Shown one piece after another: positions 1,481 through 18,788 of a stretch of 37,849 bases of DNA. The position numbers and the translations under genes were made by a program. Below the pieces are notes generated by a model. The model was not told where the DNA came from. It was given only the letters and a program-made list of their open reading frames with translations, and ran no database searches. The stretch is taken from contig CAZJZM010000003.1 of assembly GCA_964550485.1 (NCBI GenBank), positions 1-37,849 of the forward strand. Direction: 5' to 3'. This DNA is from Candidatus Micrarchaeota archaeon (GTDB lineage Archaea > Micrarchaeota > Micrarchaeia > Micrarchaeales > CABMGC01). Position 1 is the stretch's first letter, and every line of letters starts with the position of its first letter.

Positions 1481-2704
1481 CTACCTGCCAATTATAAATT
1501 CAATATCATCCTGGCTCAAACCCAGCAATCCTCCTATCTGCATCATCGCAGTTTCCTCTCCGAGGTCCTTTATCGATTTCTCGAAAACAATCTTCAACAA
1601 GGGCAGGTAGTCTCGTATTATCTTCCTTTTGTTTGTGTGGAGCTTATCCGAGAGTTTTTCCGCAATCTCGTTCAACGAGGTCCTGTCAACCTTTGTACTA
1701 CCCATGTACCTTATCTTGGAGGGAAAGTTGTAGGGCTTGAGCATTCTCACATAGCCATCGTTCGACATCGCAACTCCCGAAGCGAGAAGCACGCTTACGT
1801 ATCTCAAATAGCCCCAGTAATTCGTCCTGTTGGCCTTCTCATAGAATCTGCTCGCCTTGGCAAGGTTCTGATAGGCATCGTTCACTCCCTGTTTTGAAGT
1901 ATACCTGTTCGGTATGTTCTCGTCCACCCAGTTAAGCACCATTTCGGTATCTACATTGCTTTTGGCAAGCGCATTTCTTGATATGTCGAAGTTTGCAGAA
2001 AGGAAAATCTTGTCCAGTACGCCAAATATCTCCATCTTGGTGTCCCTTATCCCTATATTTTCCATGAGCTCCTTAGGCGCACCTATCATTGCCTCCATAT
2101 CATTCATGGCCCCTCTCACGTCACCGTTGGACCTCTTGGCTATAATCTCTATAATCCCATTGTCCATCTTTGCGTCCTCCTTCACCGCGATGCTTTTCAG
2201 GAGCCTCGATATGGTTTCCGTATTCACCTTCTTGAATTCTATCTTGTCAACAGCCCCTCTCAGGAAACGTATGTGCGGATCCCAGTAATCCTCGGCTGTG
2301 AATATCACCGGCTGCCTCGAGCTCTTCAGCAGCTGTCCTATCACCTTCTCAACCCCAACGTCATATTTCTTTGAAAGTTCGTCTATTTCATCGAGCAGTA
2401 TCAGTATCGTTTTTCCAAAGAGCCCCTTGCTCCTGCTGGCAGGGATCACCGTCTTATTCAGGTTCTCTGCGTCCCTATAGTCGCTTGCCGTCAGTTCGAG
2501 CAGTTCGTAGCCATTGCTGTAAGCCAATGCCCTTGCCGCAGCCGTCTTTCCCACCCCAGATGGCCCTACTAGTATGATCGCCTTCCTATTCTCTCCCTTA
2601 TGTATCTTCTCGGCAAACTTGCTTAGCGAGGCTATGGCGGAATCGTTTCCAACTATTCCATTCAATGTAGTAGGCGCATATTTTTCTGAGAGCAGAATAA
2701 CCAC
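1481..2704 (-). CDS. rfcL: Replication factor C large subunit
   Basis: Motifs SEKYAPTTLNGIVGND, Walker A GPSGVGKT, LLDEIDEL and NGDVRGAMNDME. The track ORF (to 2902) runs over a tRNA gene, so the start is trimmed to in-frame GTG 2704 (or TTG 2707), just before the conserved EKY-x-P motif. Confidence 0.85.
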   Translation of the reverse strand: MVILLSEKYAPTTLNGIVGNDSAIASLSKFAEKIHKGENRKAIILVGPSGVGKTAAARALAYSNGYELLELTASDYRDAENLNKTVIPASRSKGLFGKTILILLDEIDELSKKYDVGVEKVIGQLLKSSRQPVIFTAEDYWDPHIRFLRGAVDKIEFKKVNTETISRLLKSIAVKEDAKMDNGIIEIIAKRSNGDVRGAMNDMEAMIGAPKELMENIGIRDTKMEIFGVLDKIFLSANFDISRNALAKSNVDTEMVLNWVDENIPNRYTSKQGVNDAYQNLAKASRFYEKANRTNYWGYLRYVSVLLASGVAMSNDGYVRMLKPYNFPSKIRYMGSTKVDRTSLNEIAEKLSDKLHTNKRKIIRDYLPLLKIVFEKSIKDLGEETAMMQIGGLLGLSQDDIEFIIGR

Positions 2705-2710
2705 CAATAA

Positions 2711-2720
2711 GATATAAATA
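2711..2720 (+). promoter_or_regulatory. TATA box (GATATAAATA) for tRNA-Glu
   Basis: A/T box lies about 27-35 nt upstream of tRNA position 1. It sits in the 40-nt gap between the divergent rfcL and the tRNA. Confidence 0.55.
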
Positions 2721-2746
2721 GGGAAGCAAACAATAAAATGCTTGCT

Positions 2747-2821
2747 GCTTCGATCGTCTAGCTCGGTCAAGGACGGAGCCCTCTCACGGCTCAAACTCGG
2801 GTTCAAATCCCGATCGGAGCA
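2747..2821 (+). tRNA. tRNA-Glu (anticodon CUC), 75 nt, no encoded CCA
   Basis: Folded by hand. Acceptor GCTTCGA/TCGGAGC (one G-U pair). D stem GTCT/GGAC. Anticodon stem GAGCC/GGCTC with loop CTCTCAC. T arm TCGGG-TTCAAAT-CCCGA. Discriminator A. Confidence 0.85.
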
Positions 2822-3012
2822 AATACTAGTTCCCCATATCCTAATTTTATCTTTGTGGCTATATTTCAAGTAAAACTGGAGGAAATTCAAATTTATAGCC
2901 ACAATGACATTTACTCACTAAGCTTACAATGAGAGATTAATGCTCTTTCAAAGATGGAATCTGAAACTATCCTTAACAAAAAGGTAGCCTTTCTTCTTTC
3001 CCACAGGGAGGA

Positions 3013-8527: not shown

Positions 8528-9184
8528 ATGTCACTGCCTGCCAACCTGGTATCCCTATTACAGGGGATAATGACCGGTGCCGGAACAATAATCACAAGCT
8601 TCATGTACAGCTACGGCTATCTTTCATTATTTGTTTTGATGACACTCGAATCGGCTTCGTTTCCGATACCAAGCGAAATCGTTCTTCCATTGGCAGGGCT
8701 TCTCGCGGCGAAGGGCGTTTTCAACGTTTACCTCGCATTTGCGATAATCCTTTTTGCCGGGATAGTTGGGATAACGATCGACTATTATCTTGCCTACTGG
8801 CTGGGAAAGGACGTGGTCTACAAGCACCTCAGGAGTTTTCATATCAAAAAGGAGCATCTGGACGCCTTTGACGAATGGTTCAACAGAAATGGGACATTCA
8901 CGGTCTTCATCGGAAGGCTTCTCCCTGAGATCAGGGGCCTCGTAAGCCTTCCCGCAGGGTTTGCGATGATGCCCAAGAAAAAGTTCTATGCCTACTCAAT
9001 AGCGGGAATGGGAATCTGGGACGCAGCCCTCCTCACATTTGGGTATTATGCACTAAACGCGCATAACGCCTATGTGGTGATGGTAGCGATTGCAATATTC
9101 GCAATAGTGATATACGCATTGTATAAGTTAGGTACTAGGACAAGAAAAATCAAGCCTGCTGCTGTTGCTGCTTCCCTATCTTGA
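8528..9184 (+). CDS. DedA-family (SNARE-associated) membrane protein
   Basis: YGYLSLFVLMTLESASFPIPSEIVLPLAG and GRLLPEIRGLVSLPAG are DedA signatures. Multi-TM. Confidence 0.8.
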   Translation: MSLPANLVSLLQGIMTGAGTIITSFMYSYGYLSLFVLMTLESASFPIPSEIVLPLAGLLAAKGVFNVYLAFAIILFAGIVGITIDYYLAYWLGKDVVYKHLRSFHIKKEHLDAFDEWFNRNGTFTVFIGRLLPEIRGLVSLPAGFAMMPKKKFYAYSIAGMGIWDAALLTFGYYALNAHNAYVVMVAIAIFAIVIYALYKLGTRTRKIKPAAVAASLS

Positions 9185-9530
9185 GCCGCTGGGCCTCGAG
9201 CTCCTCCTTGGTCTCGGGCTTCCTCACTATTATGTACTTCTGCACCGTCTTTATCATTATGGCTATGGCGCGGTGGATGTCTGCCTCCGTCTTAGAACCC
9301 GTGCAGATGACCTTGCCATTCTTGAAAAGCAGGAGGGCCGTCTTCGGGTCGTGTATCTTGTAGATCGCTCCGGGAAACTGCTCAGGCTCGTAGTCGACGT
9401 CAGGCGATGCCTTCGCTATCGCGTAAAGGTCCAATTCTACACCGAGTGCTGCGCTTGCGACTATGTTCTCAATCTTGAAATCTGGCCTAAGCATTATCTT
9501 CCTTCCTTTCTTGGCTGTACTTTTAGGCAT
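9150..9530 (-). CDS. TATA-binding-protein homologue with a single TBP repeat (126 aa)
   Basis: IENIVASAALG...DLYAIA...DYEPEQFPGAIYKI..PKTALLLFKNGKVICTGSKTEADIHRAI equals one TBP repeat. It has a basic N-tail and a Q-rich C-tail. The stop lies inside the convergent DedA 3' end. Confidence 0.75.
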   Translation of the reverse strand: MPKSTAKKGRKIMLRPDFKIENIVASAALGVELDLYAIAKASPDVDYEPEQFPGAIYKIHDPKTALLLFKNGKVICTGSKTEADIHRAIAIMIKTVQKYIIVRKPETKEELEAQRLKIGKQQQQQA

Positions 9531-9559
9531 ATAATCACTCTTTAGATATGCGGTGAAGG

Positions 9560-9569
9560 TATTTAAATG
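9560..9569. promoter_or_regulatory. Shared, nearly palindromic TATA box TATTTAAATG between the TBP-like gene and rpl21e
   Basis: The box lies 31 nt from the TBP-like ATG (9530) and about 49 nt from the rpl21e ATG (9617). Confidence 0.5.
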
Positions 9570-9616
9570 TGTTTCTCCTAAAGATAAAGTGATTCAATAG
9601 AGTTAATGTGAATACT

Positions 9617-9904
9617 ATGAGCTCGTCAAAAGGACTCTTCTCAAGGAGGACAAGGAAGCTTTCAAGACATATCAAGCCATCTGAGATGGGGATAAGCATG
9701 AGGATCAAGGAGTTCGAGAACGGAAGCAAGGTAATAATCATGCCCAGGAGCACCTACAACAGGAGCGTGCCCCATCCGAGGTACAAGGGAAGGACTGCGG
9801 TGGTTTTGGGAAAGAGGGGAGACGCCTATGTTGTCGAGATGGAACTGAGCAAGTCGACGAAGAGAAGGCTGGTAGTCCCGCAGATGCATCTCCAAAGAGC
9901 CTAA
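9617..9904 (+). CDS. rpl21e: 50S ribosomal protein L21e
   Basis: SRRTRKLSRH..., PHPRYKGRTAVVLGKRGDAYVVEM and LVVPQMHL match L21e. ATG 9617 is preferred over the track GTG 9608. Confidence 0.85.
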   Translation: MSSSKGLFSRRTRKLSRHIKPSEMGISMRIKEFENGSKVIIMPRSTYNRSVPHPRYKGRTAVVLGKRGDAYVVEMELSKSTKRRLVVPQMHLQRA

Positions 9905-9924: not shown

Positions 9925-10872
9925 TTATTTACCTGCTCCTGTTATGAATATCTCTTGATGGTCATTGTTTAAGATAAATCCTATCTGCTCAATACTAAAG
10001 TAGAAATTTGGCTCCATTACTTTATTTTCAACTGAAATCCTTGAAGAATAACCTCTTTCTGCCCTTCTTTTATTCGTATCCGGTTGCAACTCAAATTTCC
10101 ATTGGAAAAAAGTTAAATTATCTTCATGTAACTTATAAGGAAGCATGTTGTAATATTCTTGACGTGGCAGTGCCTGAATTATCTTAGTATCTGAAATTAC
10201 CTCAGTCATTACGCCGGTGAACCTGCCTCTGTCATTACTCCAGATAAATCCTGTTCCCTGTGCACTAAAAGTGACCCTTGCCAAAGCCCCCGTATCTAAG
10301 TCTGTAGCTATCATATATACGCTGTCATCTCCCAGCTTGAGATTTCCTAGCTTAAGCTCAATCAGAATCCTGTCTCCCTCATTAACCGGCCCATTAAACT
10401 CCTTGTATTCAAAACCTTTTCTTCCACCAAAATCCAGAACATTTTTGTTTTTGTCATCCCATATCTGGAAAACAAGTTTAAACTTGCCATCTGCTATAGT
10501 ATATGCAAGGCCGGCCTGGTACCACCATCTTTCTTCTGTAAGACCATTTACTTCATATGCTATCAGACGGACATCCGCCTTTAATGCTTTAATCTGATAT
10601 TTTAAATCTTGGATTTTGAATGTTGGATTATTTGCATATTCGTATCCCTGTTGTACATAATATAAATCTCTGTCATTTTCCCTAGAGGTCGGACTACTTA
10701 CTACCAACACACTTCCTAAGATAGCGACTCCGATTGCTGCCTTTCCTAAATATCTCTTAATCTTATCCGAATACCTACTTCTGCTCCGTATCGCTTCTAT
10801 CTTTTGGCCATAACTTATATTACTAACGTTAAGATTAGATGGTTCTGCTTCTTTTCTCCCCTTTGCAATCAT
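9925..10872 (-). CDS. Hypothetical membrane-anchored protein (one N-terminal TM helix, beta-rich ectodomain) in an AT-rich island
   Basis: Long ATG-initiated ORF. TM segment AAIGVAILGSVLVVS. I recognise no family. Confidence 0.5.
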   Translation of the reverse strand: MIAKGRKEAEPSNLNVSNISYGQKIEAIRSRSRYSDKIKRYLGKAAIGVAILGSVLVVSSPTSRENDRDLYYVQQGYEYANNPTFKIQDLKYQIKALKADVRLIAYEVNGLTEERWWYQAGLAYTIADGKFKLVFQIWDDKNKNVLDFGGRKGFEYKEFNGPVNEGDRILIELKLGNLKLGDDSVYMIATDLDTGALARVTFSAQGTGFIWSNDRGRFTGVMTEVISDTKIIQALPRQEYYNMLPYKLHEDNLTFFQWKFELQPDTNKRRAERGYSSRISVENKVMEPNFYFSIEQIGFILNNDHQEIFITGAGK

Positions 10873-11036
10873 ATACTCTTACACTAATATTAATACTCAG
10901 ATATTTAAGTCTTGATTGGCATAAGGCCTTCGCAGTCCAAATCCAGAAATAATCAGATCCTTTTATCCAAACAATAGACATGTATTTCGAAGCTCCAACT
11001 TTCTATTTTCTTCTTTTCAATTAGATGTTTGATCTA

Positions 11037-11243
11037 CTATGAGCTTTTTTCAGGAATATTATATATCATATCCACAAACCTTTTCTGCTCGCTACTCCAC
11101 TCTTTGTTGCTCTTTTTCTTTATATAATCAGCATAGAATTTTATAAATTCAAGGTTACTTCTATGGTTTCTCCTTTTCTCTTTTCTTAGTTCTTTCAGCG
11201 ATATCTTAGGTCTCAAGGTCTTCACCAAGGCTTTCTCTGACAA
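11037..11243 (-). CDS. Small, very basic hypothetical ORF (68 codons, non-ATG start); possibly a frameshifted continuation of the upstream gene
   Basis: TTG-initiated in the track. It overlaps the preceding nucleotidyltransferase-like ORF by 38 nt in another frame. Lys/Arg-rich. Confidence 0.3.
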   Translation of the reverse strand: MSEKALVKTLRPKISLKELRKEKRRNHRSNLEFIKFYADYIKKKSNKEWSSEQKRFVDMIYNIPEKSS

Positions 11244-11832
11244 CTGATTTCTTTATCTTCATTGCCTTTATATAATACTTAAGCTCTTCAGGATTTAAAT
11301 ACTCTTTCAATACTCTGTAAAGGTGCGCCGCATCGTCCAAGTCCTTATCGCTACCCAAGAACAATTTGTAAGCGATCTGTGATTCTAATTCGGAAGTGTT
11401 TATGATTCCATGATCAAAAGCCACCTTTATCTTGTTTATTAATGCCAGTTCTCCTAAAGTTTCTTTAGGAAATTTCAGTTCGAAGTTTGGGAAGATATTC
11501 CCATGAAAAATTATACGTAGAGAAGAACCCTCTCTAAGTAGTTCATAAGCATCCTCATTGTTTTCTGCATTCATTATGCTAAAATCTTTAGTTTTCAAAG
11601 AGTCGAAGAAATCAAACAATTCCTGTTTATTCCTTGGATTTATGAACAGATCCACGTCCTCCGTAGTTCTGCTTCTTCCGAAAAGTATTGCAACATAGCC
11701 GCTTATGATAACATAATCAAATTTTATCAAGCTTACGAAATCCAATACAAGCTTGTCTAAGGCATTCAGCTCTTTGTTCTTTAAATAGATTGTCTTGCCT
11801 TTTCTTTCTATTTCCACAGTATCCCCTCCCAA
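11206..11832 (-). CDS. Nucleotidyltransferase-fold protein (MNT/AbiEii/DUF6036-like)
   Basis: SGYVAILFGRSRTTEDVDLFI fits the G-x(n)-G-x-x-R-x-T-x-D-x-D polymerase-beta-like NTase motif. The start is TTG 11832 or GTG 11817; there is no early ATG. Confidence 0.5.
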   Translation of the reverse strand: MGGDTVEIERKGKTIYLKNKELNALDKLVLDFVSLIKFDYVIISGYVAILFGRSRTTEDVDLFINPRNKQELFDFFDSLKTKDFSIMNAENNEDAYELLREGSSLRIIFHGNIFPNFELKFPKETLGELALINKIKVAFDHGIINTSELESQIAYKLFLGSDKDLDDAAHLYRVLKEYLNPEELKYYIKAMKIKKSVVRESLGEDLET

Positions 11833-11873: not shown

Positions 11874-12455
11874 TCATCTGATTTGCGGATGCATCGGCCT
11901 TGTGAGAATATAGAATCTGCTTTCCCCTTTCAATTCCATAAGTACTCGTTCCATCAGGAGTTTTACTGGATCCTGGAGCAGCGCGACCCTTTGCGAAATG
12001 TCCGCAAAGCTCTCGAAGGGCTTCTCCTCCCTCGCCTCGAGTATCGCCTGGAGGTGCTTCTTCCCTATTCCCGGGAGAAGTTCCAGCGTGTGCATCCTTA
12101 TGTTGAGGGGCGAGGCGTTGTTGAAGAAATCCACAAACCTCTTCTCGTCTCCCCTTATTATCGAGGCTATTGAAATCGGAAGCTCGCTCCTCGAACCTTC
12201 AGTCAGGTTTTCGTACGCGAGCCTTGATTTTATGAGCGAGATCTTGTCCCTGACTCCCTTCCCTATGTAAATCCGCTCCTCGGTGCGTATGTCGGTGACC
12301 TTTGGAACCGCCTCAAGAAGGGTGAACCTTGTCTCTCCTATCAGCTGCACTATAGGCTCAGACCTTACAGAAAAAGACTTTCCGGTTGGGAGGTAGTCGA
12401 GAACGTGGGCATATTCTTCCAAATCTCCCCCTGTTCTCTGTTCCATCTCTTGCAT
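11874..12455 (-). CDS. DUF655-family RNA-binding protein
   Basis: EEYAHVLDYLPTGK...IGETRFTLLEAVPK...RIYIGKG plus a C-terminal HhH-like segment. It sits immediately downstream of rpoF, as in many archaea. ATG 12455 is preferred; the track uses TTG 12467. Confidence 0.75.
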   Translation of the reverse strand: MQEMEQRTGGDLEEYAHVLDYLPTGKSFSVRSEPIVQLIGETRFTLLEAVPKVTDIRTEERIYIGKGVRDKISLIKSRLAYENLTEGSRSELPISIASIIRGDEKRFVDFFNNASPLNIRMHTLELLPGIGKKHLQAILEAREEKPFESFADISQRVALLQDPVKLLMERVLMELKGESRFYILTRPMHPQIR

Positions 12456-12477
12456 GCTATTACCCAAATCCGCACAT

Positions 12478-12828
12478 TTACCCCTTGCTTCTGCTGCTTT
12501 CTACTATCGCGAATGCCTTGTCCGCTATCTCAGGCTCCAGCGCCTTCTTCTCGTTCGCAAGTATGTGCTTGACCTGAACGACGTCCATCGGCATAACGTT
12601 TATTATTGAAACGGCGATCTTCTCGCTTATCCCGAGCTCCTCCAATTGCTTCTTCATCTTTTCCGCCGCGTTTACGGTAACCTTTGAGAACTTCTTCGAG
12701 TAATCAAGCGCCAGTGTCTGCTCGTATCCGAATTCCCCTTCCTTCTCCCTTTTCTCAAGGATCTCAAGGGCTTCGGAGAGCGGCACTATCTTCACCGTCT
12801 TCTCGTTCTTCACTGCCATAAATATCAT
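12478..12828 (-). CDS. rpoF: DNA-directed RNA polymerase subunit F (Rpo4)
   Basis: About 115 aa. LSEALEILEKRE...EQTLALDY..KFSK...AEKMKKQLEELGISEKIAVSIINVMP is the Rpb4/RpoF pattern. A TTTATATT box (revcomp of 12851-12858) lies upstream. Confidence 0.8.
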   Translation of the reverse strand: MIFMAVKNEKTVKIVPLSEALEILEKREKEGEFGYEQTLALDYSKKFSKVTVNAAEKMKKQLEELGISEKIAVSIINVMPMDVVQVKHILANEKKALEPEIADKAFAIVESSRSKG

Positions 12829-18666: not shown

Positions 18667-18788
18667 GGCGGAGTAGCTCAGCCCGGTTAGAGCGCTAGGC
18701 TCATACGCTAAGCTTTATGAGCGACGAGCATTTATGCGATGACTGCTAAGAAATCTAGAGATCGCGAGTTCAAATCTCGCCTCCGCCA
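18667..18788 (+). tRNA. tRNA with anticodon CAU (elongator Met, or Ile2 if modified), carrying a 47-nt intron at the canonical 37/38 site (18706-18752)
   Basis: Folded by hand. Acceptor GGCGGAG/CTCCGCC. D arm GCTC-AGCCCGGTTA-GAGC. Anticodon stem CTAGG...TCTAG is interrupted after CTCATA. T arm GCGAG-TTCAAAT-CTCGC. G1-C72 argues against an initiator. The mature length is 75 nt. Confidence 0.85.

What the first reader, a model, noticed from the sequence alone, without database searches (positions are those of the whole stretch)
9150..9530. Half-size TATA-binding protein with a single TBP repeat
Seen in sequence: a 126-aa ORF whose core is DFKIENIVASAALGVELDLYAIAKASPDVDYEPEQFPGAIYKIHDPKTALLLFKNGKVICTGSKTEADIHRAIAIMIKTV. 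That core carries the hallmarks of exactly one TBP repeat (IENIVAS, EYEPEQFPG, LLF-x-x-GK-x-x-CTG-x-K). A Lys/Arg-rich N-tail precedes it, and KPETKEELEAQRLKIGKQQQQQA plus a stop follows it. Established: archaeal and eukaryal TBP cores are about 180 aa, made of two tandem copies of this repeat forming the pseudo-symmetric DNA saddle. There is no room for a second repeat here. The 3' end already overlaps the convergent, apparently intact DedA gene by 35 nt (9150-9184), and the minus-strand sequence below 9150 is DedA antisense. The ORF has a TATTTAAATG box 31 nt upstream, shared with rpl21e, so it looks like an expressed gene rather than debris. Inference, three options: a monopartite TBP working as a homodimer (an extant analogue of the hypothesised pre-duplication TBP), one half of a split TBP, or a truncated paralogue with a regulatory role.
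Basis: partly seen in the sequence, partly recalled or inferred. Interest (0 to 1): 0.8.

Follow-up and report, generated by a model that had tools for sequence, protein, structure and literature searches.

The report
One-repeat TATA-binding protein of Micrarchaeota
This archaeon, and at least 80 related Micrarchaeota species, carry a strongly conserved half-length gene where the normal two-lobed TATA-binding protein gene should be, so the key promoter-recognition factor probably works here as a pair of identical halves, as long proposed for its ancestor.

Summary
The ORF at 9150-9530(-) encodes 126 aa with exactly one complete TBP repeat (PF00352, 101 bits).

- **Not an artefact.** The identical protein, with the same DedA overlap, is on three other contigs, each from a different metagenome sample.
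- **Widespread.** All 80 best-matching Micrarchaeota species genomes carry one single-repeat gene (94-134 aa). The 83-aa core is 75-98% identical to the window protein, and median dN/dS is 0.05.
- **Same locus as canonical TBP.** The gene sits divergent to rpl21e. All six canonical two-repeat Micrarchaeota TBPs I sampled sit in the same place.
- **Functional residues kept.** DNA-contact and TFB-stirrup residues are invariant in my 28-sequence alignment. A conserved TATA-like element plus a Shine-Dalgarno-like motif lies upstream.
- **Re-duplication inside the clade.** One lineage nested within the half-TBP clade has fused two whole 98-codon units into a 196-aa protein. Its model folds as a normal TBP saddle.

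Best explanation (about 0.7): this is the organism's general TBP and acts as a symmetric homodimer.

Main gap: I could not search any whole genome for a second, canonical TBP.

I found no paper describing this. NCBI labels these proteins "hypothetical". The closest prior art is the monopartite TBP-domain proteins of Halobacteria and Thermococcales (Brindefalk 2013). Thermococcales keep a full-length TBP alongside, and the halobacterial copies closely resemble full-length TBPs of the same species.

The parts
9150..9530 (-). Complete CDS of the one-repeat (monopartite) TBP, 126 aa plus stop
   Evidence: ORF list and sequence. PF00352 gives a single full-length hit. The identical protein is on three contigs from three other metagenome samples.
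9234..9482 (-). TBP repeat core, aa 17-99 (S1-H1-S2-S3-S4-S5-H2). It carries the minor-groove Asn22/Val24, the kink-inducing Phe52 and Phe69, Ile75/Thr77, and the stirrup Y47-EPEQFPG-54.
   Evidence: Pfam stretch. Alignment to both repeats of P. woesei and S. acidocaldarius TBP. AF2 model with core pLDDT 85-91; Foldseek rmsd 0.8-1.7 A for most of the best matches, each to one lobe of a solved TBP. 47 of 83 positions are invariant in 69 distinct orthologues.
9483..9530 (-). Basic N-terminal tail, aa 1-16. Its last 9 residues fit the family motif G-K-[KR]-[VI]-x-L-[HKN]-P-x and align with the inter-repeat linker of canonical TBP.
   Evidence: In the alignment to 1pcz/1ais, query aa 9-16 align with the linker residues from 91 onward that precede the C-terminal repeat. 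The motif is conserved in 80 orthologues. The same segment forms the linker in the re-fused P0003.
9150..9233 (-). Variable Lys/Glu/Gln-rich C-terminal tail (aa 100-126) and stop codon. Its last 35 nt overlap the 3' end of the convergent DedA gene.
   Evidence: In orthologues the tail is 2-27 aa (median 6.5); this one is the longest. Model confidence is low here.
9558..9567 (-). TATA-like promoter element TTTAAATACC, 28-37 nt upstream of the ATG
   Evidence: Sequence. An ATAAATACC-like element (<=1 mismatch) is present in 69 of 78 orthologous upstream regions, starting at a median of -38.
9534..9540 (-). Shine-Dalgarno-like GAGTGAT just upstream of the ATG
   Evidence: Sequence. GTGGT or GTGAT lies at about -5..-10 in nearly all orthologous loci.
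9608..9904 (+). rpl21e, the divergent neighbour that marks the ancestral Micrarchaeota TBP locus. The true start is probably the ATG at 9617.
   Evidence: PF01157. Orthologues are called at 95 aa. rpl21e is divergent upstream in 72 of 80 one-repeat loci and in 6 of 6 two-repeat loci.
8528..9184 (+). Convergent VTT/DedA-family membrane protein gene that bounds the 3' end of the TBP gene
   Evidence: PF09335. DedA is convergent downstream in 64 of 80 one-repeat loci. Other genes are inserted between them in L001 and L003.

Best explanation
This is the organism's general transcription factor TBP, reduced to one repeat. Two identical 126-aa chains are proposed to pair through their S1 strands and H2 helices. 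Together they would rebuild the ten-stranded DNA saddle that a canonical TBP makes from two tandem repeats in one chain. Each chain's basic N-tail would lie where the inter-repeat linker normally lies.

The homodimer would insert four Phe residues (Phe52 and Phe69 from each chain) into a TATA box of the TTTAAATA type. It would offer two identical EPEQ stirrups to TFB. Promoter direction would then depend entirely on TFB-BRE contacts, which is already the rule in archaea.

What is shown:
- one repeat only, conserved across a large Micrarchaeota clade;
- positional orthology to the canonical TBP gene;
- strong purifying selection;
- retention of the DNA-contact and stirrup residues;
- a conserved promoter-like element;
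- natural re-fusion of two such units into a protein whose model is a standard saddle.

What is inferred: dimerisation, TATA binding, TFB recruitment, and the absence of any other TBP in the genome.
For: 1. **Single repeat.** One full PF00352 repeat is present and nothing else is TBP-like in the window.
2. **Spread.** The 80 best genome hits come from 80 different Micrarchaeota assemblies. Each has exactly one repeat within +-6 kb. The 78 complete ORFs are 94-134 aa, median 107. More divergent one-repeat members (56-58% identical) sit at the same locus.
3. **Locus.** rpl21e is divergent upstream in 72 of 80 loci. All 6 two-repeat Micrarchaeota TBPs sampled across the repeat tree sit at the same rpl21e / Rpo4(F) / DUF655 locus. 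The half gene therefore occupies the ancestral TBP slot.
4. **Selection.** Median dN/dS is 0.05 and the maximum is 0.21 over 1510 pairs, with synonymous sites often saturated. Median core identity to the window is 82%, against about 55% for the neighbouring L21e, DedA and Pelota.
5. **Residues.** N22, V24, Y47-EPEQFPG-54, L67, F69, I75 and C76 are invariant in my 28-sequence alignment of one- and two-repeat proteins. The best PDB matches are archaeal TBPs at E about 1e-43, with both repeats aligning. The model superposes on one TBP lobe.
6. **Re-fusion.** P0001-P0004 are 195-196 aa, and P0003 is exactly 2 x 98 codons. Unit 2 begins SAKR where the half gene begins MAKR. The two repeats are 87% identical at the nucleotide level, with dN 0.045 and dS 0.63. 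Flanking proteins place that genome inside the one-repeat clade: 70-79% identity to one-repeat genomes, 56% to the window, 38-43% to other two-repeat genomes. The P0003 model is a full saddle, TM 0.83-0.88 to archaeal TBPs.
7. **Expression signals.** A conserved TATA-like element and an SD-like motif lie upstream.
Against: - No whole genome could be searched, so a canonical two-repeat TBP elsewhere in these genomes is not excluded. The indirect checks were weak: accession ranges, contig-length coincidence and locus sampling.
- No multimer prediction or experiment was possible, so dimerisation is inferred.
- Known monopartite TBP-domain proteins of Thermococcales occur alongside a full-length TBP, and the halobacterial ones closely resemble full-length TBPs of the same species (PMC3597702). 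This is a precedent for accessory half-TBPs.
- The P0003 model was made from a single sequence and has only moderate confidence (pLDDT 74; the other four models scored 31-40).
Confidence: 0.7

Rival explanations
1. Accessory or regulatory paralogue. A canonical two-repeat TBP exists elsewhere in the genome. The half-TBP modulates transcription, for example by capping TATA boxes, titrating TFB, or forming mixed assemblies, as proposed for other monopartite TBP-domain proteins.
For: There is precedent. The monopartite TBP-domain proteins of Thermococcales co-occur with a full-length TBP. Halobacterial TbpA is reported as functional but non-essential and closely resembles full-length TBPs of the same species (PMC3597702). 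I could not scan any complete genome.
Against: - The half gene sits in the ancestral TBP locus, where 6 of 6 sampled two-repeat TBPs sit. No two-repeat TBP was seen at any other locus.
- It is far more conserved than its ribosomal-protein neighbour.
- It retains every DNA-contact and stirrup residue checked.
- A nested lineage turned it back into a two-repeat TBP at the same locus.
- Unlike the Thermococcales proteins, it is not diverged from TBP (E about 1e-43 to P. woesei TBP).
Confidence: 0.17
2. Split TBP. The protein is one half of a heterodimer whose other, distinct half is encoded elsewhere.
For: Split genes are known in some DPANN archaea (my own knowledge). Genomes could not be scanned in full.
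Against: - The 80 best genome loci come from 80 different assemblies, so no genome shows a second close copy.
- The more divergent one-repeat proteins P0231 and P0254 are themselves at the rpl21e locus of other genomes, so they are orthologues rather than partners.
- The natural fusion P0003 joins two copies of the SAME unit, which suggests self-association is sufficient.
- The protein is about equally similar to N- and C-terminal repeats of reference TBPs.
Confidence: 0.06
3. The single TBP domain has been recruited to a different job (nucleic-acid binding unrelated to transcription initiation), acting as a monomer. Single TBP-like domains do this in RNase HIII and in DNA glycosylases.
For: Single TBP-fold domains function in other contexts (PMC3597702; PMC12917281).
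Against: Its sequence is that of a bona fide TBP repeat (44-47% identical to archaeal TBP lobes in the structural alignments). The TFB stirrup motif and both Phe residues are invariant. It is orthologous by position to TBP. The reversal to a two-repeat form argues for an unchanged function.
Confidence: 0.05
4. Artefact or decaying pseudogene: a truncated TBP produced by misassembly, frameshift or recent deletion.
For: None, beyond the short length and the overlap with DedA.
Against: - The identical gene is on three contigs from three other metagenome samples.
- Eighty species share the one-repeat architecture, with different downstream neighbours.
- No repeat remnant is present in any frame.
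- Median dN/dS is 0.05.
Confidence: 0.01

Closest known systems
Canonical archaeal TBP (e.g. Pyrococcus woesei TBP, PDB 1PCZ/1AIS/1D3U; M. jannaschii 2Z8U; S. acidocaldarius 1MP9)
   Same: - Same repeat family (PF00352) and same lobe fold (rmsd about 1-1.7 A to the archaeal TBPs).
- Same DNA-contact Asn/Val/Phe/Phe/Thr positions and same EPEQFPG stirrup.
- Same genomic slot as the TBP gene of other Micrarchaeota.
   Different: It has one repeat per chain instead of two (94-134 aa against about 180-200). It fails all NCBIfam TBP models (about 94 bits against cutoffs of 181 or more). The saddle can therefore form only between chains and would be perfectly, not pseudo-, symmetric.
Halobacterial TbpA-type monopartite TBP (Brindefalk et al. 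2013, PMC3597702)
   Same: It is a single TBP domain whose sequence clusters with genuine TBP repeats rather than with diverged TBP-fold proteins.
   Different: As reported in that paper, TbpA is very similar to full-length TBPs of the same species and is not essential. The present family is conserved across at least 80 species, sits in the primary TBP locus, and shows no sign of being a side copy.
Thermococcales monopartite TBP-domain proteins (e.g. P. furiosus NP_578195, 82-136 aa; PMC3597702)
   Same: They are stand-alone proteins of one TBP-fold domain and about 100 aa.
   Different: Those proteins are strongly diverged from TBP and coexist with a full-length TBP. This protein is 44-47% identical to archaeal TBP lobes in the structural alignments, matches them at E about 1e-43, and is the positional orthologue of TBP.
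Hypothetical pre-duplication homodimeric proto-TBP
   Same: It has one repeat per chain and a presumed symmetric homodimer. A nested lineage has undergone whole-unit tandem duplication and fusion, the step postulated for the origin of TBP.
   Different: This family is most likely secondarily derived from a two-repeat ancestor, because other archaea and other Micrarchaeota have two repeats. It is an analogue of the ancestor, not a relic. The polarity of the change was inferred by parsimony and not rigorously tested.
Single TBP-like domains inside RNase HIII and DNA glycosylases
   Same: They show a single-copy TBP fold acting without a tandem partner.
   Different: Those are N-terminal modules of multidomain enzymes with very low sequence similarity to TBP. 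Here the whole protein is a canonical TBP repeat.

Membership tests
TBP (archaeal/eukaryal TATA-binding protein, PF00352 / NCBIfam PRK00394 models) | Contains the TBP repeat (PF00352) above Pfam's gathering score | tested here: met
   101.4 bits against a cutoff of 22.9, covering profile positions 1-85 of 85. The orthologues P0121, P0140 and P0160 score 104-108 bits, with one stretch each.
TBP (archaeal/eukaryal TATA-binding protein, PF00352 / NCBIfam PRK00394 models) | Two tandem repeats in one polypeptide forming the pseudo-symmetric saddle | tested here: not met
   There is one Pfam stretch. No second repeat exists in any frame of the window or within +-6 kb in 80 orthologous loci. The protein is 126 aa.
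TBP (archaeal/eukaryal TATA-binding protein, PF00352 / NCBIfam PRK00394 models) | Reaches the curated full-length score of an NCBIfam TBP model | tested here: not met
   The best score is 94.4 bits, against cutoffs of 181-347. This explains NCBI's 'hypothetical protein' labels.
TBP (archaeal/eukaryal TATA-binding protein, PF00352 / NCBIfam PRK00394 models) | DNA-contact residues (S1 Asn and Val, two intercalating Phe, S5 Thr) and the acidic stirrup that binds TFB/TFIIB | tested here: met
   N22, V24, F52, L67, F69, I75 and Y47-EPEQFPG-54 are invariant in alignment A1, and most are also invariant across the one-repeat family. T77 is present in the window protein and nearly all orthologues. All align with the equivalent residues of both repeats of 1pcz/1ais/1mp9. 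Assigning roles to these positions rests on published TBP structures (my own knowledge).
TBP (archaeal/eukaryal TATA-binding protein, PF00352 / NCBIfam PRK00394 models) | Orthology to the organism's TBP gene (same conserved locus) | tested here: met
   The locus lies divergent to rpl21e, next to Rpo4(F) and DUF655. It is shared by 72 of 80 one-repeat loci and 6 of 6 two-repeat loci.
TBP (archaeal/eukaryal TATA-binding protein, PF00352 / NCBIfam PRK00394 models) | Binds and bends TATA DNA and recruits TFB and RNA polymerase | not testable with these tools
   This needs EMSA or FRET, in vitro transcription, or at least multimer-plus-DNA structure prediction.
Accessory monopartite TBP-domain proteins (Thermococcales group, Brindefalk 2013) | Strong sequence divergence from genuine TBP repeats (a separate cluster) | tested here: not met
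   E about 1e-43 to P. woesei TBP, 44-47% identity to archaeal TBP lobes in structural alignments, and 55-77% identity to two-repeat Micrarchaeota TBPs.
Accessory monopartite TBP-domain proteins (Thermococcales group, Brindefalk 2013) | Co-occurrence with a full-length TBP in the same genome | not testable with these tools
Only indirect evidence is available (and locus sampling).

The most novel reading that the evidence does not exclude
Across a large clade of Micrarchaeota the ONLY TBP is a one-repeat protein that works as a perfectly symmetric homodimer. Within that clade evolution has also run the other way: a whole-gene tandem duplication and fusion re-created a two-repeat TBP. This would be a living, genetically paired model (half, fused, and canonical forms at one locus) of the duplication that created TBP. 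It would also be a natural test of whether TBP asymmetry is needed for archaeal transcription at all.
Probability: 0.65. Interest if true: 0.9.

Novelty: new variant of a known kind. Interest (0 to 1): 0.85.

Why it matters
TBP is the textbook case of a pseudo-symmetric protein thought to have arisen by duplication and fusion of a homodimeric ancestor. No natural TBP orthologue working as a homodimer has been described in the literature I could search.

If the Micrarchaeota one-repeat protein is the sole TBP, three things follow:
- The two-lobe covalent architecture and any N/C-lobe asymmetry are dispensable for archaeal transcription initiation.
- Promoter polarity can rest wholly on TFB-BRE contacts.
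- The origin hypothesis becomes directly testable with natural proteins: the half form, its re-fused 2 x 98-aa descendant, and canonical relatives at the same locus.

There is also a practical point. NCBI's pipeline names these proteins "hypothetical" because they fail the full-length TBP models. Surveys that rely on those full-length model names would score these genomes as lacking TBP. JGI's pipeline does name them TBP.

Tried and rejected
1. **Assembly or truncation artefact.** Rejected: the identical gene is on three other contigs from different samples, and 80 species share the architecture.
2. **Hidden second repeat.** I looked in other frames, downstream, and elsewhere in the window. 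None was found.
3. **Same-contig coincidence.** I suspected that two-repeat P0097 (contig 89,549 bp) lay on the same contig as the one-repeat L015 (89,543 bp). It belongs to a different assembly and sits at its own rpl21e locus.
4. **Co-occurrence through NCBI accession ranges.** I compared accessions of one-repeat and two-repeat proteins. There was no overlap, but the sets come from different submissions, so this is uninformative.
5. **Literature searches.** I searched for a Micrarchaeota, DPANN or homodimeric one-repeat TBP. Only Brindefalk 2013 is relevant. The 2016 dDR paper and the 2017 TBP review do not mention it.
6. **Biopython neighbour-joining.** It timed out on 318 repeats and was replaced by my own NJ code. 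That tree has no bootstrap values, so I relied on flanking-gene identities for the nesting argument.
7. **Representative-library search.** It could not settle exclusivity, but it revealed more divergent one-repeat members (P0224, P0231, P0254).
8. **Homodimer prediction.** Not possible: the structure tool takes single chains and accepts only natural sequences. The natural fusion P0003 was used as a proxy.
Full report
**Observation.** Pfam finds one TBP repeat and only one. It spans aa 17-99 and covers the whole PF00352 profile (E 2.5e-29, 101 bits). The convergent VTT/DedA gene (8528-9184) overlaps the last 35 nt. rpl21e lies divergently upstream, and Pelota lies beyond DedA. TTTAAATA sits 30-37 nt before the ATG, and GTGAT sits at -8..-4. 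tblastn with the repeat and with six two-repeat TBPs at E<=10 finds nothing else TBP-like in the 37.8-kb window. Pfam scans of 42 of its larger ORFs find no other TBP domain.

**Not an artefact.** The identical 126-aa protein, with the same DedA overlap and the same neighbours, occurs on three other contigs from three different metagenome samples. In the orthologous locus of GCA_027314605.1 the 110-aa gene is followed by a different, co-directional gene. The short length therefore does not depend on the DedA overlap.

**A large conserved family.**
- The genome-collection scan returned 422 relatives. The best 80 are 80 different Micrarchaeota assemblies, a few of them mislabelled.
- In every one, tblastn finds exactly one repeat within +-6 kb.
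- The 78 complete ORFs are 94-134 aa, median 107.
- The 83-aa core is 75-98% identical to the window protein, median 82%. Of 83 positions, 47 are invariant in 69 distinct sequences.
- The flanking L21e, DedA and Pelota proteins are only about 55% identical.
- Nei-Gojobori estimates give a median dN/dS of 0.05 and a maximum of 0.21 over 1510 pairs, with synonymous sites often saturated.
- The exhaustive representative search shows further one-repeat proteins at 56-69% identity. Two of them (P0231 in GCA_028866905.1, and P0254) sit at the same rpl21e locus.

**It occupies the TBP locus.**
- 72 of 80 one-repeat genes lie divergent to rpl21e, with a median gap of about 99 nt. 64 of 80 have DedA convergent downstream.
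- I looked up six two-repeat Micrarchaeota TBPs chosen across the repeat tree: P0003, P0097, P0076, P0024, P0025 and P0012. All six sit divergent to rpl21e, next to Rpo4(F) and DUF655.
- The one-repeat gene is therefore the positional orthologue of the canonical TBP, not an extra copy at a new site.

**It is a bona fide TBP repeat.**
- The best PDB sequence matches are archaeal TBPs (P. woesei, S. acidocaldarius, M. jannaschii) at E about 1e-41 to 1e-43. The query aligns to both of their repeats. Its N-tail aligns with the inter-repeat linker.
- In my 28-sequence alignment these residues are invariant: the S1 Asn and Val (N22, V24), the stirrup Y47-EPEQFPG-54 including F52, and L67, F69, I75 and C76. 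In solved TBP complexes the equivalent positions contact the minor groove, kink the DNA and bind TFB/TFIIB (my own knowledge).
- An AlphaFold2 model (core pLDDT 85-91) has the S1-H1-S2-S3-S4-S5-H2 topology. Most of its best Foldseek matches superpose on one lobe of a solved TBP at 0.8-1.7 A over about 80 residues.
- The N-tail motif G-K-[KR]-[VI]-x-L-[HKN]-P-x, just before FKIENIV, is conserved across the family.

**A natural re-fusion.**
- The closest two-repeat proteins (P0001-P0004, 195-196 aa) have two repeats that are 87-93% identical to each other.
- P0003 is exactly 2 x 98 residues. Unit 1 matches the 98-aa half gene of its nearest relatives (MAKR...YILSEKK). Unit 2 starts SAKR, where ATG has become TCG.
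- The two repeats are 87% identical at the nucleotide level, with dN 0.045 and dS 0.63.
- Five flanking proteins place the P0003 genome inside the one-repeat clade. They are 70-79% identical to those of one-repeat genomes L053, L058, L047 and L052. They are 56% identical to the window's and 38-43% identical to those of other two-repeat genomes.
- A neighbour-joining tree of 318 repeats likewise nests only the P0001-4 repeats among the 88 one-repeat sequences.
- By parsimony, this lineage re-created a two-repeat TBP by tandem duplication of the whole half gene.
- The P0003 model matches full archaeal TBP saddles at TM 0.83-0.88. It was made from a single sequence and has only moderate confidence.
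- Two copies of this unit can therefore plausibly form a TBP. One- and two-repeat states have replaced each other at one locus.

**Expression signals.** An ATAAATACC-like element (<=1 mismatch) is present in 69 of 78 upstream regions, starting at a median of -38 from the ATG. GTGGT or GTGAT lies at about -5..-10 in nearly all of them.

**Interpretation.** The most economical reading is that this is the lineage's general TBP and that it assembles the DNA saddle as a symmetric homodimer. Promoter polarity would be left to TFB-BRE, as established for archaea (my own knowledge). I put this at about 0.7.

The main rival is an accessory paralogue alongside a canonical TBP elsewhere, at about 0.17. 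It survives only because I could not scan whole genomes. A split heterodimeric TBP, a monomeric non-TBP role, and an artefact are each unlikely, for the reasons given under the rival explanations.

**What is known.** Brindefalk et al. 2013 (PMC3597702) described monopartite TBP-domain proteins of two kinds. Halobacterial TbpA is TBP-like and non-essential. The Thermococcales proteins are diverged and occur next to a full-length TBP. None of my other searches found a paper on a one-repeat TBP in Micrarchaeota or DPANN, or on a homodimeric TBP orthologue. A DPANN comparative-genomics paper simply scores TBP as conserved in about 89% of genomes.

NCBI annotates these proteins as "hypothetical protein" because they score about 94 bits against NCBIfam TBP cutoffs of 181 or more. 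JGI calls them TBP.

I therefore class the finding as a new variant of a known kind: a TBP orthologue with a different quaternary design. It is probably derived secondarily from a two-repeat ancestor, and it sits in a phylum whose two-repeat TBPs already show high inter-repeat identity (57-93%).

**Limits.**
- Dimerisation, DNA binding, TFB recruitment and exclusivity are all inferred.
- The repeat tree has no support values.
- The direction of change (collapse, then one re-duplication) rests on parsimony and flanking-gene identities.
- The taxonomic extent of the clade was not mapped on a species tree.

Noticed in passing
Proteins P0005-P0120 (two-repeat Micrarchaeota TBPs): The two repeats within each two-repeat Micrarchaeota TBP are 57-93% identical to each other. 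In the NJ tree, N and C repeats cluster by lineage rather than all N together and all C together. This suggests recurrent gene conversion or repeated collapse and re-duplication across the phylum.
   Followed up: partly
L003:8001-8591 (P0003); also P0001, P0002, P0004: P0003 is a 196-aa TBP made of exactly two 98-codon copies of the half gene fused head to tail. The second unit's ATG has become TCG and the first unit's stop codon is gone. The repeats show dS 0.63 and dN 0.045.
   Followed up: yes
window 9531-9616, and the equivalent 80-110 nt upstream of the TBP start in L009-L088: The very conserved upstream element (A)GAAAAACATATAAATACCTTTCA lies in the short rpl21e/TBP divergent intergenic region. 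Many loci carry a second TATA-like box (ATTTAAATAG or TTTATAAA) at -20..-25, near the expected transcription start. I could not tell whether one box serves both genes or whether the second is an autoregulatory TBP site.
   Followed up: partly
L009 (DATJMH010000022.1), L013 (JAKBPE010000013.1), L029/L040/L070: Contigs carrying this Micrarchaeota-type locus are deposited in MAGs labelled 'Candidatus Saccharimonadales bacterium', 'bacterium' and 'Candidatus Marsarchaeota'. This is probably bin contamination or mislabelling.
   Followed up: no
Proteins P0121, P0124, P0127, P0140-P0146, P0155, P0158, P0162: NCBI names the one-repeat TBPs 'hypothetical protein', whereas JGI names them TFIID TBP. The cause is that they score about 94 bits against NCBIfam TBP cutoffs of 181 or more. 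Surveys that rely on the full-length model names would miss TBP in these genomes.
   Followed up: yes
Proteins P0177 (272 aa) and P0209 (257 aa): P0177 is a three-repeat TBP whose first two repeats are near-identical. P0209 is a TBP with an acidic insertion of roughly 80-90 aa between its repeats. So TBP repeat number and spacing also vary outside Micrarchaeota. Their origin and integrity were not checked.
   Followed up: no
window 9150-9233: The window protein has the longest C-terminal tail of the family: 27 aa against a median of 6.5, ending KQQQQQA. Only this extension creates the 35-nt antisense overlap with the DedA 3' end. The tail is not conserved, and the low-confidence model shows it as a helix.
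   Followed up: partly
window 9925-11832: Two genes lie between rpl21e and the DUF655/Rpo4(F) pair (11874-12828), which is adjacent or close to rpl21e in other loci. One encodes a 315-aa protein with no Pfam hit and the other a DUF2204 nucleotidyltransferase-like protein. This looks like a lineage-specific insertion.
   Followed up: no
window 2746-2822 (+) and 1481-2902 (-): A tRNA-Glu(CTC) gene lies inside the 5' end of the 473-aa RFC-like AAA+ ORF on the opposite strand. The true start of that gene is probably further downstream than the GTG that was called.
   Followed up: no
window 18667-18788 (+): Rfam finds a full-length tRNA match spread over 122 nt (58 bits) that ARAGORN does not report. 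It is probably an intron-containing archaeal tRNA.
   Followed up: no
window 9608-9616: The mechanical ORF for rpl21e starts at GTG 9608 (98 aa). Orthologues are called at 95 aa, and the ATG at 9617 gives MSSSKG..., so 9617 is the likelier start.
   Followed up: partly
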